The position numbers and the translations under genes were made by a program. From the sequence record MK327932.1: 64,000 nucleotides of DNA, one strand, 5' to 3'. The DNA is from Escherichia phage vB_EcoM_G2248. The notes under the pieces were generated by a model, which was not told where the DNA came from, did not search any database, and saw only the letters and a list, made by a program, of their open reading frames with translations. Shown here in pieces: positions 14,610-36,386 of this stretch; within the stretch, counting starts at the first letter, position 1; every line of letters begins with the position of its first letter.

Positions 14610-14846
14610 ATGATTAGCTTTAAACGTTTTTTGGTTGAGGCCGTTATTGACGGTTTTATGAGTAAGATTTATTCTTGTAATACTATCGAGGGATTAAATG
14701 AACTTGAGGCATATTATGAGAAGCGCAAGAAAGAAACAGAATTGAAACCTGCTGATGATATTTCGATCCGTGATGCCATCGCTGGACGCCGTAAGCAACT
14801 GGAAGCGGACAACGAGCCGGAAGAGGAGCCGGAAGAGGATTTTTAA
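14610..14846 (+). CDS. uvsW.1: UvsW.1-like small acidic protein
   Basis: 78-aa ORF immediately after uvsW, as in T4; acidic C-terminus. Confidence 0.6.
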   Translation: MISFKRFLVEAVIDGFMSKIYSCNTIEGLNELEAYYEKRKKETELKPADDISIRDAIAGRRKQLEADNEPEEEPEEDF

Positions 14847-24171: not shown

Positions 24172-26223
24172 TTACATTTTAAATTTATCTGGCATTGCGT
24201 CTACAGATACCAGATCAGCGATAAGCTGACGTAGAGTTGCCTTATCTGCTTTCTTACGTTCGGTTTTAGCTTCGCTAATGAAGCTGGAGAAAGACAGGTC
24301 AGAAGCAGGTTTAACAACACCTTCACGGATGAATGCATCACCGTCCGCGATCATCTCGCCAGATTCTTGTAATGCTGCCAGTTCATTTTTGTTCATAATA
24401 TGTGCCTCAATGTAATAAGTTTCTTGTGAATCCGTCGATGCCGTAGCACGAGTTACCGTATCAAAGGATAACACAACACCGCGAGGAAGTAAAATCTCGC
24501 ATTCTTTGTAAGCAAATGCTTTGTTACCTACTGGCAAGACAGGGATGTTTTCCGCGCCAGCAATGGAGAAAGCAACATTAGCGCCACCTTCACCGCGAGA
24601 GCCAGCCATAGAATCAACACCAGCAACGGCACTAGCCACGTTTGCATTCCAGCCGCCAAAAATGTTAGGTGCAAGGGAAGTGCTCACATAGTTTTTAAAG
24701 TAAAACGCTTTTTGCTTACGTGCAGTTTCCCACATTTGCGACCGGAAGTCCATACCACGATACAGAATAGTACCCGGATCAAGTTTAACGCCATAGTTGG
24801 AGAAGGCATTATCCAGTGCATCGCACATCTTGACCAATTCTTCTGGATCTGAGATGCCTTCAAACTCTTCCAGCTTACGATCAGTTAGGAAGTTGTTCAT
24901 ATTGATGTATGCTGCATCGGCATATTCGCTCAACACAAAACCTTCCGCGCCTGGCAGATCAAGATCAATATCTGCCATCATTTCACCCATGTTACTAGCA
25001 ATTGCTTCAAACATACCGGAAGCAACATTACGCAGGGCATCGGTTTTAATCTGGGTGATATGACTACGCAGCATTTCAGCTTTTACATCTGCTGGCATAG
25101 ACTGGTCTACTCGATCCATTGCCAGGGCGGTGATCTTGTTTTCGAATACTTCCTCGCTCATGATTTCTTTTAAGCGTTTGATTGATGCTGCGATAACTTC
25201 CGCAGACAACGGATCATATTGATCCTGAACTTTTACCAGTTCGCTTACTGCGTATTTTGCATCGGCTTCGCTTTCAAAAATAGTACGCATGAAACCATAG
25301 CGAGTGATAATATCACTTGTCCAGTCATTCAGAGAACGGGCGGTTGAACGTTCTAAGGCTTGACGATCAATCAGAGTATTAAACTGTTTCTTAGGTTCGG
25401 CTTCGGTGATATCTTCTTCCGGTTTAAGATTAATTTTTTCTGGATGATTCACATAGTCGCTGTTATAGGTCGCTTGAGTTTTCAGCATTTCTTCTTTAGT
25501 CAAACGAGATTTAGCCGCTACGCGTTGTTCCGCTTCCGCGTTTCGTTCTTCTTCTGACACCAGACTAGCCGCATACGCCTCATCTTTAGTCAGAGATTCA
25601 CCAGTAGCCTTAGATACCCAGCGATCACCTAAATCACTTTCTACTTTAGTGAACAAGGAATCATCAAGTTTAATCCCTTTAATCTTATCAATCGCCATAC
25701 CGCGACGCTTGACAACAACTAAAGCGATCTTTTTGCTGGTCATTACTTCCTGCTGGAATACTTCAAACTTCGGTGTACGACGCACCAAACGCTCTATAAC
25801 GCGCTTAACCAGTTCGGTCTTACCTTTCATGCGGGATACGTTAAAACGGAACATAACAGCGTCTAATTGCGCTTTACGGGCTGTTTCCATAACCACATCA
25901 AAAGCACTTGCCATAACTGCAATCGGGTTATCGCCTAGACCATTTTTAAGCTGTACAATACGACCGCTTTTGTTCATTTCGCACAGTACAACATGTGCGG
26001 TCTTGTCACCCATACGAATGATTTTAGGTGTTTTGTTGGTGAAGTTACAAAGACGGACAATCACATCTTTATCGCGTGTCTGTACTGCAAAAAGCTGTTT
26101 AGGATTCTGCTTAGGCTTTAAGCACTGTACCGGAGCAATACTGCCAAAGTTTTCTTCCTCTTCCGTCAACAGCCATTTCTCGAAAGATTCAATCATTAGA
26201 TCGTCGATTTCTAAGTTAAACAT
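24172..26223 (-). CDS. alt: Alt ADP-ribosyltransferase (packaged, modifies host RNA polymerase in T4)
   Basis: 683 aa (T4 Alt is 682 aa); position after gene 54; ART-like C-terminal motifs. Confidence 0.8.
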   Translation of the reverse strand: MFNLEIDDLMIESFEKWLLTEEEENFGSIAPVQCLKPKQNPKQLFAVQTRDKDVIVRLCNFTNKTPKIIRMGDKTAHVVLCEMNKSGRIVQLKNGLGDNPIAVMASAFDVVMETARKAQLDAVMFRFNVSRMKGKTELVKRVIERLVRRTPKFEVFQQEVMTSKKIALVVVKRRGMAIDKIKGIKLDDSLFTKVESDLGDRWVSKATGESLTKDEAYAASLVSEEERNAEAEQRVAAKSRLTKEEMLKTQATYNSDYVNHPEKINLKPEEDITEAEPKKQFNTLIDRQALERSTARSLNDWTSDIITRYGFMRTIFESEADAKYAVSELVKVQDQYDPLSAEVIAASIKRLKEIMSEEVFENKITALAMDRVDQSMPADVKAEMLRSHITQIKTDALRNVASGMFEAIASNMGEMMADIDLDLPGAEGFVLSEYADAAYINMNNFLTDRKLEEFEGISDPEELVKMCDALDNAFSNYGVKLDPGTILYRGMDFRSQMWETARKQKAFYFKNYVSTSLAPNIFGGWNANVASAVAGVDSMAGSRGEGGANVAFSIAGAENIPVLPVGNKAFAYKECEILLPRGVVLSFDTVTRATASTDSQETYYIEAHIMNKNELAALQESGEMIADGDAFIREGVVKPASDLSFSSFISEAKTERKKADKATLRQLIADLVSVDAMPDKFKM

Positions 26224-26754: not shown

Positions 26755-26816
26755 GTTTGATTCTCCTTTCGTTTCGGTATGTGTGCATTATAGGGGATCG
26801 GTGACCCCCTGTCAAC
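26755..26816 (-). promoter_or_regulatory. PeSL-like early promoter cassette
   Basis: Minus strand: TTGACA, GGGGGTCACCGATCCCC (palindromic 17-nt spacer), TATAAT, leader, GGAGAATCAAACATG. Confidence 0.65.
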
Positions 26817-32783: not shown

Positions 32784-33086
32784 TTACGCAAAATGGCGTG
32801 TCAATGCTTCTTTTGCTGTTCCGCTAAGATTCTCGATCTCTCCTGGCATAACATCAACCGCCAGAACTTCTACAACATCCTCTGATCCTAACCAGTGAGT
32901 ATGACCTTTGTAGAACTTGATATCCCATTTATCGCTATCGCTAGCCCACCACACATCACCGTCTATAAAGTTGATGTAAAGCACACTACGACACATTGAA
33001 TTAGTTACTTTCAATACTGCGCCTTTCATCTCTTCCACGGTATGGTCTTCCATTTTGAAGACCTCGCCTACCTTAACTTTTGCCAT
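32784..33086 (-). CDS. H-x-H-W family small protein, paralog F
   Basis: LYINFIDGDVWW ... KGHTHW ... VEVLAVDVMP; start at MAKVKVGEV. Confidence 0.5.
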   Translation of the reverse strand: MAKVKVGEVFKMEDHTVEEMKGAVLKVTNSMCRSVLYINFIDGDVWWASDSDKWDIKFYKGHTHWLGSEDVVEVLAVDVMPGEIENLSGTAKEALTRHFA

Positions 33087-33087
33087 G

Positions 33088-33354
33088 TTACATGCTCCGA
33101 ATATGTTTAGATGCATCTTCCAGTTCGTCGATAGTGACACTGTGAGCCAGTAAGTGTACTGGTTGTGGTTCTTCACCTTCCATAGTATTGATCAGATGAC
33201 CGTTTCCTGGGTGGAATGTATCGTTGCCGTTCCAAATAGCATACACATCATCTTCTGTTACGTAGATAATAAGTCCAATCGGTGATTCTGGTAATTGAAA
33301 AATTTTACCCACTGCATCTTTGCGATTGTTTACGATATCTTTTACTGTCTTCAT
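33088..33354 (-). CDS. Divergent H-x-H-family-like small protein, paralog G (88 aa)
   Basis: IIYVTEDDVYAIW ... HPGNGH ... VHLLAHSV follows the family layout with weaker motif conservation. Confidence 0.4.
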   Translation of the reverse strand: MKTVKDIVNNRKDAVGKIFQLPESPIGLIIYVTEDDVYAIWNGNDTFHPGNGHLINTMEGEEPQPVHLLAHSVTIDELEDASKHIRSM

Positions 33355-33373
33355 TTAGTTACCTCTCGTTAAA

Positions 33374-33553
33374 TTACATCACAATCACGCCAGCCGTTGA
33401 AAGTTGATGTTTCAACTGAGCATTTTCTGCTACTGTCAAATCAATGATTTCTTGTGACGCTGCAATCATATAGCCATTGGTGATATTGTTTTGCATCAGT
33501 TCAATGGTTTCTTCGTTGTAGCGGATTTTAGCGATGATTTCGTTGAAGTTCAT
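33374..33553 (-). CDS. Small hypothetical early protein (~59 aa)
   Basis: Start taken at MNFNEII directly after a PeSL cassette. Confidence 0.4.
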   Translation of the reverse strand: MNFNEIIAKIRYNEETIELMQNNITNGYMIAASQEIIDLTVAENAQLKHQLSTAGVIVM

Positions 33554-33618
33554 GTTTGATTCTCCTAGTTCGTTTCGGTATGTGTGTATTATAGGGGAGT
33601 TTAACCTCACCTGTCAAC
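33554..33618 (-). promoter_or_regulatory. PeSL-like early promoter cassette
   Basis: Minus strand: TTGACA ... TATAAT, leader ACCGAAACGA, GGAGAATCAAACATG. Confidence 0.6.
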
Positions 33619-33626
33619 AACTTTTT

Positions 33627-33938
33627 TTAAAGTTTTTCCATGATAACGGTCATAATTACATCTTCTGCGCGAGCGGTCAGATTATCAGCGTCAGTATGTG
33701 GGCGGTTGGTTGTTACAGAGATAACACCGTTGCGCACTGGTTTGATATTGATATCAAGATGATCCGCGAAACGTTCGCCAGTTACAGAATGAATTTTGGT
33801 GTTAAATTCTTTTGCCAGTGCCTTGCGAACTTCACGAATCAGGATAGCGTTTTTCAGTTGGTTCTCCGCGCTCATGGTCTTCTGGGTGTTCATGGTTCCG
33901 TCGAAGTCAATCATTGGCAGCGTTACGATGTATTTCAT
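33627..33938 (-). CDS. Small hypothetical protein (~103 aa), paralog of 30076..30363
   Basis: Start at MKYIVTL after a PeSL cassette; shares VRKALAKEFNTK with the 30076 ORF. Confidence 0.45.
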   Translation of the reverse strand: MKYIVTLPMIDFDGTMNTQKTMSAENQLKNAILIREVRKALAKEFNTKIHSVTGERFADHLDINIKPVRNGVISVTTNRPHTDADNLTARAEDVIMTVIMEKL

Positions 33939-34052
33939 TTTTGATTCTCCGTTTAAGAAAGTGTGTTTCGTTTTGATGTGTGTAGTATAGGGGATACGTG
34001 ATCCCCTTCGTTTTGATGTGTGTAGTATAGGGGATACGTGATCCCCTGTCAA
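33939..34052 (-). promoter_or_regulatory. PeSL-like early promoter cassette containing a perfect 40-bp tandem duplication
   Basis: The unit TCGTTTTGATGTGTGTAGTATAGGGGATACGTGATCCCCT occurs twice in direct tandem (33968..34007 and 34008..34047), duplicating the -10 region and stem-loop; -35 TTGACA lies just beyond. Confidence 0.6.
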
Positions 34053-34065
34053 CAACTTTTTTGAA

Positions 34066-34410
34066 TTATTTTTTCATGAGCTTAATGGCTTCTTCCATAG
34101 CCAGCACATTTCGATAGTTAGGGTATCGTGTTAGATCGTCATACATTCGCTTAAGGGTGGAAACTTCCTCAAACTCTGGGTTTTCTAGATATAGTTGAAC
34201 AAATTGTTTCTCTACCATCTCGGCTTTTAGCTTGTCTGCTTGTTCCTGTTCATATGATTTCGTTGGACCCAACACCAACAAAATGATAAAGGTGATCAAC
34301 GGGCTAATGATCAATGATAGGATAACATAACCGATAACGCTACGGTTTAAACGGCTTGCGTACATGCCTACCAGGAAAACAAAAAGGATATAGATAAACA
34401 GAAAGAACAT
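34066..34410 (-). CDS. Small membrane protein (114 aa)
   Basis: Two strongly hydrophobic N-terminal segments (FFLFIYILFVFLVGM, VILSLIISPLITFIILLVLG). Confidence 0.5.
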   Translation of the reverse strand: MFFLFIYILFVFLVGMYASRLNRSVIGYVILSLIISPLITFIILLVLGPTKSYEQEQADKLKAEMVEKQFVQLYLENPEFEEVSTLKRMYDDLTRYPNYRNVLAMEEAIKLMKK

Positions 34411-34417
34411 ATAATGG

Positions 34418-34891
34418 TTACTCCTTATTTTCGCGCTCGTACTTTTCGAAATAAAATTCTACTGGCTGGTCATGAATTGACAGCAAGCCAAAGCGTTTAG
34501 CCGCTCGCAATCCCATATTGCGCTGAATGTACTTCTGGAAGTTCTCGCGTATACACTTACGCCAGTATTCTAAGCCCATACAGCTTTTATAAAGATTGCA
34601 TTGCACACACGCCGGATTCATGTTATCAAGTATATCATGTTCCGGTTTATGCATTCCTACAACCTTATACTTCCACGATCCATCATCATTACGGGCAATT
34701 CGTCCATTTTCATCATAGACTACCTTTGAGCGTCGCAATACTGGTTTGATGTGGTCTGCGTGCCAGCGATCCCCTAGTTCCTCGCCACAATAGGCACAAC
34801 GTCCACCATATTTCATTTTCAGGATCTGGCGTTGCTCTTTCTTTGACAATTTTTTAGGTTTAGGGGCTTTCGCCCCTTCATTATCACACAT
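34418..34891 (-). CDS. HNH endonuclease
   Basis: CAYCGEELGDRWHADHIKPV ... NMNPACVQCN: HNH motif with two CxxC pairs; overlaps the 3' end of the ligase gene. Confidence 0.65.
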   Translation of the reverse strand: MCDNEGAKAPKPKKLSKKEQRQILKMKYGGRCAYCGEELGDRWHADHIKPVLRRSKVVYDENGRIARNDDGSWKYKVVGMHKPEHDILDNMNPACVQCNLYKSCMGLEYWRKCIRENFQKYIQRNMGLRAAKRFGLLSIHDQPVEFYFEKYERENKE

Positions 34892-36386
34892 CGAATACCT
34901 CTTTTACTGTATTTGCAGTGGTCTTGTCGTAGCGAATACGTTTGATGATCGGGAGAAATAAAGAGAACTCAGGTTCATCTTCTTTACGTGATTTGCTGCG
35001 AATGTACCCGTTGCATGTCATCTCAATGACTTTTCCAATCAGGTTATGACGGTCAGCCCATAACATTTCTCGGTCGAGTTCATTTCGACGATCGAACGGA
35101 ATTACACGTTCAATACCATCATCACCTTTTTCGGTTGTGGTGTCGGTTAATCCCGATCCGGTGTTAGTCATCATTCGTCCGCACGCACTACGGACAGTAA
35201 AACCGCCTACCTTATTAGGATCTTTACTATGCGGATATACATCAACAATTTCAGCGTCGAAGTCAATCACTTCTTTAAATTTAACCTGGTCTTTACTGCG
35301 ACGATCTTCAAATACACCATGTAAATTTTTAAGGATAATACCTTCTAAGCCCATGTTTACATAGCGATGATATACTTCGCGAGCTTCATCTATATTGTTA
35401 ACTACAGTGTTTTCGATTATCTGAACACGAGGATCGTTAAGTTCTTCAACAATCTGTTTTAGTTCTTCGAATCGATCTTTATATTGCTTCGTTGCTTTCT
35501 CGTTTCCGTAATACACATCACGGTCGATAACATCCCAGACAGTATAAACAATACATTGGGCTTCTTCTTTTGGAATAGTTCCTTTAAGTGATTTGTTGAG
35601 GATACCATTTCCGGTCTGACGATCTGCAACAACGGATTCTTTTACTGCTTCCGCTACTGGCGTTAATGGCATTTCCTCTTCTTCAAATATCCATGACAGA
35701 GTACCATCATAAACGCTCTCAACGAAGTTCTGCGCTGGTGTTTGCGAAAGGGTAGGCATATATACCAATTCGCCATCTAGAACAATTCCACGGCCTCGTA
35801 GACGCTCTAAAACCGCAAACAAATCATCAAGTCCTTGATAGGTATTACCTGAGCGGGTATAGATTGCTAATGTTTCCCCGTCAATATCAGCCATACCACG
35901 AGCGCCATCGCTTTTAAGTTGTGCATACGCCGGATACTTGATATTAGCAATAGTCTTATCAGAACATGACGATGCAAGGTGACACGGTTGCTGGGGGATC
36001 AGTTTCTTCCATACCTTGTTTGCAGTGGTAGCGGAACAACCACATTCCAGATCACGATTCAGGACCATCATTGCAACTTTAGCATCATCTTCTGACAAGC
36101 AAGTCAGAGTATCGGTAACTAGCTGTAATGCTGCGTTACCAGTTACTTGACGCGTGGCAAGTTTATTTTTAAAGACCTGTAATGCACCGGATAAAGACAA
36201 TACAGACGAATAACGCGATGGTTTATCGTATTTCTTTACGCCAAACGTAACCTGTTTGCAATATGCCAGATAAAAGCATTCTTTCAGTGTTTCATTGCTT
36301 GCAGATTCTTTCAGGATCTTTTCTTTCAGCGATGTTTTGTCTGTTGCTGCAAGCTGGTTAATGATATTAAGAATTGACATTTTCAC
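34884..36386 (-). CDS. 30: ATP-dependent DNA ligase gp30
   Basis: 500 aa; adenylation motif AQLKSDGARG (KxDG); position and size match T4 gene 30. Confidence 0.85.
   Translation of the reverse strand: MKMSILNIINQLAATDKTSLKEKILKESASNETLKECFYLAYCKQVTFGVKKYDKPSRYSSVLSLSGALQVFKNKLATRQVTGNAALQLVTDTLTCLSEDDAKVAMMVLNRDLECGCSATTANKVWKKLIPQQPCHLASSCSDKTIANIKYPAYAQLKSDGARGMADIDGETLAIYTRSGNTYQGLDDLFAVLERLRGRGIVLDGELVYMPTLSQTPAQNFVESVYDGTLSWIFEEEEMPLTPVAEAVKESVVADRQTGNGILNKSLKGTIPKEEAQCIVYTVWDVIDRDVYYGNEKATKQYKDRFEELKQIVEELNDPRVQIIENTVVNNIDEAREVYHRYVNMGLEGIILKNLHGVFEDRRSKDQVKFKEVIDFDAEIVDVYPHSKDPNKVGGFTVRSACGRMMTNTGSGLTDTTTEKGDDGIERVIPFDRRNELDREMLWADRHNLIGKVIEMTCNGYIRSKSRKEDEPEFSLFLPIIKRIRYDKTTANTVKEVFDV

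What the first reader, a model, noticed from the sequence alone, without database searches (positions are those of the whole stretch)
33968..34047. Perfect 40-bp tandem duplication inside a promoter cassette
The unit TCGTTTTGATGTGTGTAGTATAGGGGATACGTGATCCCCT occurs twice head-to-tail with no mismatches, duplicating the -10 region and stem-loop of the cassette upstream of the gene starting at 33938. A perfect repeat implies a very recent slippage or recombination event. It could create tandem promoters or alter the leader, or it could be an assembly artefact.
Basis: seen in the sequence. Interest (0 to 1): 0.4.

Follow-up and report, generated by a model that had tools for sequence, protein, structure and literature searches.

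The report
Small duplication in known phage promoter
An RB49-like T4-type coliphage carries an exact 40-base doubling inside an already well-described promoter/stem-loop cassette (PeSL211/210). The doubling copies the hairpin and -10 box but not the -35 box, so it lengthens the message leader and does not make a second promoter. It is either a very recent private mutation or a contig-joining error, and either way it is ordinary.

Summary
Window 33968-34047 is two perfect head-to-tail copies of a 40-bp unit; TRF extends the match by one base to 33967-34047. The window is an RB49-like Krischvirus, with genes here on the minus strand. In single-copy form the cassette is base-for-base identical to RB49 PeSL211/210, the 'promoter-early stem-loop' between ORF211 and ORFan210 described by Arbiol et al. 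2010. The unit holds the 7-bp stem-loop, the -10 box (TATACT) and the next 16 nt, but not the -35 box or the AT-rich region. There is therefore one complete sigma-70 promoter; the second -10 has no usable -35. If the duplication is real, the predicted leader grows from 39 to 79 nt and gains the cassette's own hairpin plus a -10-like element, so I expect attenuation, not stronger expression. The new junction is absent from 58 Krischvirus GenBank records, 37 fetched loci, IMG/VR, JGI metagenomes and GTDB genomes. Junction microhomology is 1 nt, which argues against classical slippage or homologous unequal crossover. No reads or independent assembly of this strain could be found, so an untrimmed 40-nt contig overlap remains a live alternative (about 0.3). 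Known element, private allele, low interest.

The parts
34066..34410 (-). Upstream ORFan, orthologue of RB49 ORF211 (114 aa, predicted small membrane-like protein, function unknown)
   Evidence: 113/114 aa identical to RB49p211; phrog_25625, unknown function; no Pfam hit
34053..34065 (-). AT-rich region of the PeSL between the ORF211 stop codon and the -35 box (TTCAAAAAAGTTG)
   Evidence: Sequence; 85% A+T in the 20 nt upstream of the -35; the AAGTTGTTGACA word recurs 11 times on the minus strand against 0.54 expected
34047..34052 (-). -35 box TTGACA of the only complete promoter (P1); not duplicated apart from its last A
   Evidence: Promoter scan: TTGACA, 17-nt spacer, TATACT, 11 of 12 matches
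34008..34047 (-). Duplication unit, copy 1 (promoter-proximal): stem-loop, -10 box and 16 nt
34029..34047 (-). Stem-loop copy 1 (AGGGGAT CACGT ATCCCCT); it forms the 17-nt promoter spacer plus one flanking base on each side
   Evidence: RNA fold -9.3 kcal/mol, z = -2.6
34024..34029 (-). -10 box TATACT of P1; predicted transcription start about 34017
   Evidence: The start site is inferred from the usual 7-nt distance and was not measured
33968..34007 (-). Duplication unit, copy 2 (gene-proximal); absent from all relatives
   Evidence: Alignments with G37-3, JSE, RB49, Cognac, PHB13, Skers and the ECD7-like contig show a clean 40-nt gap in every comparator
33989..34007 (-). Stem-loop copy 2, now inside the predicted leader (about +11 to +29)
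   Evidence: It forms in the MFE and centroid folds of the 97-nt leader
33984..33989 (-). Orphan -10-like hexamer TATACT (about +29 to +34 of the P1 transcript) with no -35 partner
   Evidence: -35 candidates match at most 2 of 6 at spacers 15-19; no TGn; not reported by the promoter scan
33947..33950 (-). Shine-Dalgarno GGAG, 8 nt before the ATG
   Evidence: Sequence
33627..33938 (-). Downstream gene, orthologue of ORFan210 of RB49/phi1 (103 aa, function unknown)
   Evidence: 99% and 98% identity to RB49p210 and phi1p210; phrog_7474, unknown function; no Pfam hit
33588..33617 (-). Next cassette downstream (PeSL210/209); with PeSL211/210 it brackets the ORFan210 module
   Evidence: 12 of 12 consensus promoter; context

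Best explanation
This is a strain-private, very recent partial tandem duplication inside a known regulatory cassette, PeSL211/210 of an RB49-like Krischvirus. One illegitimate replication or recombination event, with only 1 nt of junction homology and its left breakpoint exactly at the base of the stem-loop, copied 40 bp: the stem-loop, the -10 box and the first 16 nt after it. The -35 box and the AT-rich region were not copied. The cassette therefore still has one sigma-70 early promoter (-35 at 34052-34047, -10 at 34029-34024, predicted start about 34017). What changes is the transcript. The ORFan210 leader grows from about 39 to about 79 nt. It now carries the cassette's own hairpin at about +11 to +29 and a -10-like TATACT at about +29 to +34. 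The PeSL211/210 stem-loop was reported to cut downstream lacZ expression as strongly as rrnB T1, and -10-like elements in early transcribed regions can cause sigma-70-dependent pausing. The likeliest functional effect is therefore mild to strong attenuation of ORFan210 expression from its own promoter, plus doubled insulation from read-through out of ORF211. It is not a gain of a second promoter. Shown here: the anatomy, the identity with PeSL211/210, the uniqueness of the junction and the lack of a -35 for the second -10. Inferred: the start site, the attenuation and the mechanism of origin.
For: The repeat is perfect and far beyond chance. The window is a Krischvirus. The cassette meets every sequence criterion of a PeSL (against the definition). 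It is 100% identical to RB49 PeSL211/210 apart from the extra unit, and it is flanked by ORF211 and ORFan210 orthologues. All comparators carry a single copy with identical flanks. The junction is absent from 58 Krischvirus records, 37 fetched loci, IMG/VR, JGI metagenomes and GTDB genomes (the 20-mer hits are chance matches). The unit occurs nowhere else in the window, so it is a self-duplication. The second -10 lacks a -35 and a TGn. The hairpin folds in the longer leader (-9.3 kcal/mol alone; leader MFE goes from -2.6 to -13.8 kcal/mol). Published data cover terminator activity of the PeSL211/210 stem-loop and very strong PeSL promoters, PeSL crossovers mapped next to or inside the stem-loop and between the -10 and the SD, and degraded PeSLs with multiplied -35/-10 pieces ascribed to 'recombinational slippage'. 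There is also an independent precedent at this locus: RB49 ORF210 has a private, perfect 18-bp tandem duplication with no junction homology.
Against: No reads or independent assembly of this strain were available. gp30.3 has no exact record, and the only contig sharing the Alt protein belongs to a different phage. Physical reality is therefore unproven. A 1-nt microhomology is as well or better explained by an untrimmed contig overlap, and de Bruijn contigs do end inside this PeSL in public assemblies. On the sense strand the hairpin is followed by AUACUACACACAUC with no U-tract, so it is not a canonical intrinsic terminator. I could not verify the exact oligonucleotide tested in the paper because the supplement is not held. 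A 5'-proximal hairpin could instead stabilise the mRNA, so the direction of the expression change is an inference.
Confidence: 0.6

Rival explanations
1. Assembly or finishing artefact. Two contig ends, or the two ends of one circular contig that was later rotated to a reference start, overlapped by 40 nt (k-1 for k=41). They were concatenated without trimming, which produces a perfect 40-bp tandem repeat that does not exist in the phage.
For: The copies are perfectly identical and junction homology is essentially nil (1 nt), as expected for a pasted overlap. The junction is found in no other sequence anywhere. Public k=31 assemblies break contigs inside this very PeSL (L016, L018-L020). PeSL stem-loops are reported to block sequencing reactions. 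T4-type genomes assemble as circles and are commonly re-oriented (general knowledge).
Against: Within the window, the longest word this PeSL shares with any other sequence is 23 nt, too short to break a k=41 graph. 40 or 41 is not a default k of the commonest assemblers (general knowledge). The left breakpoint falls exactly at the base of the stem and both breakpoints lie in published PeSL crossover zones, which a random contig end would hit only rarely. A real private microduplication without junction homology exists about 400 bp away in RB49.
Confidence: 0.3
2. A real and selected regulatory allele. The duplication either creates a second working promoter (tandem promoters) or is a beneficial retuning of ORFan210 expression that was fixed by selection, not by drift or a plaque bottleneck.
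For: The second -10 (TATACT) matches the consensus at 5 of 6 positions. PeSL promoters are reported to be so strong that they are deleterious when cloned, so a down-tuning allele could be advantageous. This PeSL is a hot spot of natural rearrangement.
Against: The second -10 has no -35 (at most 2 of 6), no extended -10 and no A-tract UP-like sequence upstream. The allele is seen in a single genome and in none of the roughly 60 relatives or metagenome assemblies, so there is no sign of spread. ORFan210 has no known function.
Confidence: 0.07
3. A by-product of the published PeSL homologous-recombination or mini-circle pathway: excision and re-integration of the ORFan210 mini-circle, or an unequal exchange between two PeSLs.
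For: ORFan210 is flanked by the two PeSLs shown to recombine into mini-circles and dimers. Natural chimeras of this PeSL exist. L018 shows a different promoter module joined to the same leader close to the duplication's right breakpoint.
Against: Both copies are pure PeSL211/210 sequence, and the unit is found nowhere else in the window. The neighbouring PeSL210/209 has a different stem-loop and a different -10. The two breakpoints share no homology that could support a homologous exchange. Mini-circle re-integration would duplicate about 400 bp including ORF210, not 40 bp.
Confidence: 0.03

Closest known systems
PeSL211/210 of coliphage RB49 (promoter-early stem-loop cassette; Arbiol et al. 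2010, PMC2839356)
   Same: [quoted passage not shown]
   Different: The window has an extra 40 bp repeating the stem-loop, the -10 box and 16 nt. The order is therefore -35 / SLS / -10 / SLS / -10-like, and a copy of the stem-loop lies downstream of the promoter instead of only inside it.
Degraded or multiplied PeSLs in phages PST and nt-1 (Comeau et al. 2014, PMC4122927, Fig. 5 legend)
   Same: PeSLs with more than one copy of promoter sub-elements and one or more stem-loops, attributed by the authors to 'recombinational slippage'.
   Different: Those are described as weak, degraded and inappropriately spaced, so they are old and decayed. They occur in other T4-like lineages. Here the copies are perfect, in register and private to one genome.
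18-bp in-frame tandem duplication in RB49 ORF210 (ERFADH x2)
   Same: A perfect, private, small tandem duplication with no junction homology, in the same ORFan210 module and about 400 bp from this one.
   Different: It is coding and in frame (18 bp), occurs in a different genome and does not involve a PeSL.
Sigma-70-dependent promoter-proximal pause elements, e.g. lambda PR' (general knowledge, not tested here)
   Same: A -10-like hexamer on the non-template strand in the early transcribed region downstream of a strong sigma-70 promoter.
   Different: The classical elements lie within roughly the first 25 nt, whereas here the hexamer is at about +29 to +34. No pausing data exist for this sequence.
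Untrimmed k-mer overlap duplications in finished circular phage assemblies (general knowledge)
   Same: A perfect tandem repeat of fixed length with no junction homology, seen in one record only.
   Different: The length of 40 is not a default overlap of the common assemblers. The location and the breakpoint at the base of the stem are non-random. It is not testable without reads.

Membership tests
PeSL (promoter-early stem-loop cassette of T4-type phages) | Sigma-70 consensus-like -35 and -10 boxes at canonical spacing | tested here: met
   TTGACA, 17 nt, TATACT, 11 of 12 matches
PeSL (promoter-early stem-loop cassette of T4-type phages) | AT-rich tract upstream of the -35 box | tested here: met
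   85% A+T in the 20 nt upstream; the conserved word AAGTTGTTGACA recurs 11 times against 0.54 expected
PeSL (promoter-early stem-loop cassette of T4-type phages) | Stable stem-loop with a polyG...polyC stem in or next to the promoter | tested here: met
   AGGGGAT-CACGT-ATCCCCT, -9.3 kcal/mol, z = -2.6. The stem is kept while the loop varies among relatives: CACGT, CACCG, GGT
PeSL (promoter-early stem-loop cassette of T4-type phages) | [quoted passage not shown] | tested here: met
   It lies between the ORF211 stop (34066) and the ORFan210 ATG (33938). Both genes are of unknown function. It sits within a run of small minus-strand ORFs with many such cassettes
PeSL (promoter-early stem-loop cassette of T4-type phages) | Orthology to a published PeSL | tested here: met
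   100% identical to RB49 PeSL211/210 apart from the 40-bp insertion
PeSL (promoter-early stem-loop cassette of T4-type phages) | Promoter and terminator/attenuator activity in vivo | not testable with these tools
   Published for the PeSL211/210 stem-loop and for the PeSL206/205 promoter. The exact tested oligonucleotide could not be checked
Tandem (double) promoters | Two complete promoters, each with its own -35 (or extended -10) and -10 box | tested here: not met
   The second -10 has at most 2 of 6 -35 matches at spacers 15-19 and CCC instead of TGn. The scan reports only one promoter in the cassette
Intrinsic (Rho-independent) terminator on the sense strand | GC-rich hairpin immediately followed by a U-tract | tested here: not met
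   The tail after each hairpin is AUACUACACACAUC, and the minus strand has no terminator-like site. On the + (antisense) strand the duplication does create hairpin + TCGTTTTGAT
Slipped-strand mispairing or unequal homologous crossover between direct repeats | Short direct repeats of several nt at both breakpoints of the single-copy ancestor | tested here: not met
   Breakpoint contexts are TTGTTGAC|AGGGGATC and CAAAACGA|AACACACT, which share only 1 nt (A)
Contig-overlap assembly artefact | The junction is unsupported by individual reads, and the repeat length equals the assembler overlap | not testable with these tools
   No reads are available. The source genome is not on record, and the nearest Logan contig belongs to a different phage

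The most novel reading that the evidence does not exclude
The duplication is real and marks a hairpin-directed, homology-independent breakage and joining activity at PeSL stem-loops. That would be a site-specific or structure-specific component of PeSL mobility, a possibility Comeau et al. [quoted passage not shown] It would also make a naturally occurring self-attenuating PeSL that re-tunes ORFan210 expression.
Probability: 0.07. Interest if true: 0.45.

Novelty: already known. Interest (0 to 1): 0.15.

Why it matters
It matters very little. The cassette is a published element and the duplication is a one-genome polymorphism or an artefact. If real, it is a small natural experiment on the best-characterised PeSL. 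It places the cassette's own stem-loop, reported to act as a terminator, downstream of its own very strong promoter. Comparing one-copy and two-copy phages would show directly whether these stem-loops attenuate transcription in their native context. The near-absence of junction homology and the breakpoint at the base of the stem would add one data point on how PeSLs break and rejoin. If it is an artefact, the practical value is a correction to the genome record.

Tried and rejected
1. Second source of the unit. I searched the window for the -10+leader part and for the stem-loop with up to 3 mismatches. Only the two local copies turned up, plus one 3-mismatch stem-loop in another PeSL at 26793-26809. 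Import from another PeSL is therefore rejected.

2. Recurrence of partial PeSL duplications in the genus. A perfect-repeat scan and TRF over 37 loci (444 kb, about 106 PeSL-like cassettes) found none. My first TRF run on loci covered only the window, because the file pattern matched nothing, and it should be disregarded.

3. Junction in public data. A 30-mer gave 0 hits in IMG/VR, JGI metagenomes and GTDB genomes. A 20-mer gave 0 hits in IMG/VR and 8 hits in unrelated organisms with unrelated flanks, which are chance matches.

4. Independent assembly of the same strain.
- The ORF210, ligase and PseT proteins are too widely shared to isolate the strain.
- gp30.3 has no exact record.
- The Alt-like protein occurs in one Logan contig only, and that contig is only 75-80% identical to the window in the baseplate genes, so it is a different phage.

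5. IMG/VR as a source of relatives. Only one locus was found, on a contig whose length equals that of the ECD7 record.

6. Known RNA families. There is no credible Rfam match in 33000-35000.

7. Mini-circle origin. Rejected on anatomy: both copies are the same PeSL, the breakpoints share no homology, and the size is wrong.

8. Supplementary figure S1 of Arbiol et al. It is not held, so the exact stem-loop oligonucleotide tested could not be compared.

Full report
**Observation**

The repeat is real and exactly as described. TRF finds one array at 33967-34047 with period 40, 2.0 copies, 100% identity, no indels and score 162. It is the only sizeable tandem repeat in the 64-kb window. A direct scan shows 41 consecutive positions with s[i]=s[i+40]. 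The two 40-mers are identical. The chance expectation for such a run in this window is about 2e-17.

**Orientation and anatomy**

All genes in this part of the window are on the minus strand. Read on that strand, the intergenic region contains, in order:
- the TAA stop of the upstream gene (34068-34066);
- an AT-rich tract, TTCAAAAAAGTTG;
- TTGACA (34052-34047);
- GGGGATCACGTATCCCC, a 17-nt spacer that with one flanking base on each side forms a 7-bp stem and 5-nt loop;
- TATACT (34029-34024);
- ACACACATCAAAACGA;
- a second AGGGGATCACGTATCCCC TATACT ACACACATCAAAACGA;
- AACACACTTTCTTAAAC GGAG AATCAAAA ATG (33938).

The unit is therefore the stem-loop, the -10 box and the 16 nt that follow. The -35 box (apart from its last A) and the AT-rich tract lie outside it.

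**What the genome and the cassette are**

A 2-kb query matches 58 records, all RB49-like T4-type phages (Krischvirus, Straboviridae), at 90-99.7% identity. Over 24 kb the best record reaches only 97% identity with 86% coverage, so this exact genome is not in the collection.

RB49-type phages are known for 'promoter-early stem-loop' cassettes (PeSLs). These consist of a consensus sigma-70 early promoter, an AT-rich upstream tract and a G/C stem-loop. [quoted passage not shown] 2010, PMC2839356).

The window shows the same picture:
- The word AAGTTGTTGACA recurs 11 times on the minus strand against 0.54 expected.
- TTGACA-N17-TATACT-like sites occur 38 times against 8.3 expected.
- Several cassettes have GGGG...CCCC spacers.

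Annotation of phi1 and RB49 and alignments show that the upstream gene is ORF211 (113/114 aa identical) and the downstream gene is ORFan210 (99% identical). In single-copy form the cassette is identical, base for base, to RB49 PeSL211/210.

That cassette is one of the best studied. Its stem-loop, placed between a strong promoter and lacZ, reduced expression about as much as the rrnB T1 terminator. [quoted passage not shown]

**Is the duplication found anywhere else?**

It is not.
- In a 251-bp query across the repeat, no Krischvirus record matches in one full-identity piece. G37-3 matches 211 of 251 positions, which is identity apart from one 40-nt gap.
- Explicit alignments with G37-3, JSE, RB49, Cognac, PHB13, an ECD7-like IMG/VR contig and Skers all show a clean single copy. 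In Skers the same PeSL lies between other genes.
- A 30-mer across the new junction has no match in IMG/VR, JGI metagenomes or GTDB genomes.
- A 20-mer that avoids most of the variable loop has none in IMG/VR. Its eight hits elsewhere have unrelated flanks; the three in named genomes are from Lewinella, Paenibacillus and Roseicyclus.
- Among 37 fetched Krischvirus loci (444 kb, partly redundant, about 106 PeSL-like cassettes), none has the junction. Sixteen have the exact unit once and none has it twice.
- The unit occurs nowhere else in the window, so the second copy is a self-duplication and not an import.

**Correction to**

My TRF run covered only the window because of a file-pattern error. 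One search replaces it.

**Consequences if the duplication is real**

The second -10 has no partner. The best -35 candidate at spacers of 15-19 nt matches 2 of 6 positions, and CCC stands where an extended -10 TGn would be. The promoter scan reports a single promoter at 34052-34024. 'Tandem promoters' is therefore not supported.

With the usual 7-nt distance, transcription should start near 34017; this is inferred. The leader then grows from about 39 to about 79 nt. It gains the hairpin at about +11 to +29, which is -9.3 kcal/mol alone and moves the leader MFE from -2.6 to -13.8 kcal/mol. It also gains a -10-like TATACT at about +29 to +34.

Two considerations point towards attenuation of ORFan210 expression and doubled insulation from ORF211 read-through. 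The first is the published terminator-like effect of this stem-loop. The second, from general knowledge, is that -10-like elements in early transcribed regions can cause sigma-70-dependent pausing.

There are caveats:
- The sense-strand tail (AUACUACACACAUC) has no U-tract, so this is not a canonical intrinsic terminator.
- I could not check the exact oligonucleotide tested, because the supplement is not held.
- A 5' hairpin could instead stabilise the mRNA.

On the + strand, the duplication creates a hairpin followed by TCGTTTTGAT, a terminator-like site for antisense transcription.

**Origin**

In the reconstructed ancestor the breakpoint contexts are TTGTTGAC|AGGGGATC and CAAAACGA|AACACACT. 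They share a single A. Classical slipped-strand mispairing between direct repeats and homologous unequal crossover are therefore both unsupported.

The left breakpoint is exactly at the base of the 7-bp stem. [quoted passage not shown] In L018 a different promoter module joins the same leader close to the right breakpoint.

A mini-circle route is rejected. Both copies are pure PeSL211/210, the breakpoints share no homology, and re-integration would duplicate about 400 bp.

There is local precedent for homology-free microduplication. RB49 ORF210 carries a private, perfect 18-bp tandem duplication (ERFADH x2) about 400 bp away. Comeau et al. 2014 also describe degraded PeSLs with multiplied -35/-10 pieces, which they attribute to 'recombinational slippage'.

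**The artefact alternative**

A perfect repeat with essentially no junction homology, seen in one record only, is also what an untrimmed 40-nt contig overlap would produce. This could happen with k=41 and a k-1 overlap, either when contigs are joined or when a circular contig is rotated.

Points in favour of an artefact:
- Public k=31 assemblies do end contigs inside this PeSL.
- PeSL stem-loops are reported to block sequencing reactions.

Points against an artefact:
- The longest word this PeSL shares with the rest of the window is 23 nt.
- 40 is not a default overlap of the common assemblers.
- The breakpoints are non-random.

I tried to obtain an independent assembly of the same strain through exact-protein look-ups:
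- The ORF210, ligase and PseT proteins are too widely shared to isolate the strain.
- gp30.3 has no exact record.
- The one Logan contig sharing the Alt-like protein is only 75-80% identical to the window in the baseplate genes, so it belongs to another phage.

The question cannot be settled here. I put a real private mutation at about 0.6, an artefact at about 0.3 and the other readings at about 0.1.

**Comparison, novelty and score**

The cassette passes every sequence-level criterion for PeSL membership and is orthologous to a named, experimentally studied member. The duplication is a private allele of it, or an error. It fails the tests for tandem promoters, for a sense-strand intrinsic terminator and for repeat-mediated slippage. 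Nothing here lies outside known kinds of system.

Interest is low (0.15). The most novel reading not excluded is a structure-directed, homology-independent joining activity at PeSL stems that also yields a self-attenuating cassette. I give it about 0.07 probability, and it would be of moderate interest if true.

Noticed in passing
L010 2525-2560 (RB49 NC_005066.1, about 123024-123059), inside ORF210: RB49's ORF210 carries a perfect 18-bp in-frame tandem duplication (CGAACGTTTCGCGGATCA x2, giving ERFADH twice). It is absent from the window and phi1, and the ORF210 homologues annotated or called in the other records examined are likewise 312 bp / 103 aa. It has no junction homology and lies about 400 bp from the position of the 40-bp duplication.
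   Followed up: partly
L021, L023/L030, L024 (downstream of the ORF211 homologue) and L008 (Skers): The PeSL after ORF211 is joined to at least four different downstream ORFans in different genomes and metagenome assemblies. [quoted passage not shown] These are natural examples of the published PeSL-mediated module shuffling at this exact cassette.
   Followed up: partly
window 33989-34007 (+ strand): On the + (antisense) strand the duplication places the hairpin directly before TCGTTTTGAT. This creates a terminator-like site that the single-copy cassette lacks in that form.
   Followed up: no
L016, L018, L019, L020 (Logan contigs of SRR13517628, SRR21977551, SRR21977572, SRR35641394): Short-read k=31 contigs carrying ORF210 start 31-54 nt upstream of its ATG, inside the PeSL. 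This shows that de Bruijn assemblies routinely break in this cassette. L018 carries a different promoter module (…TAGCATAAT…) fused to the same leader.
   Followed up: partly
window 14814-14839: A perfect 12-bp tandem repeat (GAGCCGGAAGAG x2.2). Its counterpart in PHB13 (L006 1430-1455, one base different per copy) lies inside the CDS annotated 'DNA helicase' next to uvsW. It is probably a conserved Glu/Pro-rich peptide repeat and not a recent event.
   Followed up: no
window 34418-34891 (- strand): An HNH endonuclease gene (Pfam PF01844; phrog_2118) sits between the DNA ligase gene and ORF211 and overlaps the start of the ligase gene by 8 nt. Its called length varies among relatives (132, 157 or 158 aa). 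ORF211 is missing from some genomes (phi1, L026, L040, L041, L044, L045), so this side of the cassette is also variable.
   Followed up: no
window 24172-26223 (- strand) and L039: The 683-aa Alt-like ADP-ribosyltransferase of this phage has an exact protein match in only one public contig (Logan SRR35032026). That contig belongs to a phage only 75-80% identical in the adjacent baseplate genes, which points to recent exchange of the alt module between fairly distant relatives.
   Followed up: partly
window 33627-34055 (- strand): The mechanical ORF list extends the ORF210 frame upstream through both repeat copies to a TTG at 34055 (142 aa). This happens only because no stop codon intervenes. 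The conserved SD and ATG at 33938 is the start used in all annotated relatives.
   Followed up: yes
stem-loop of PeSL211/210 in the window, L004 (Cognac), L029 and L009 (phi1): Loop and inner-stem variants (GGGGAT-CACGT-ATCCCC, GGGGATC-ACC-GATCCCC, GGGGATC-GGT-GATCCCC) all keep a perfect G/C-rich stem. This is consistent with selection on the structure and not on the loop sequence.
   Followed up: no
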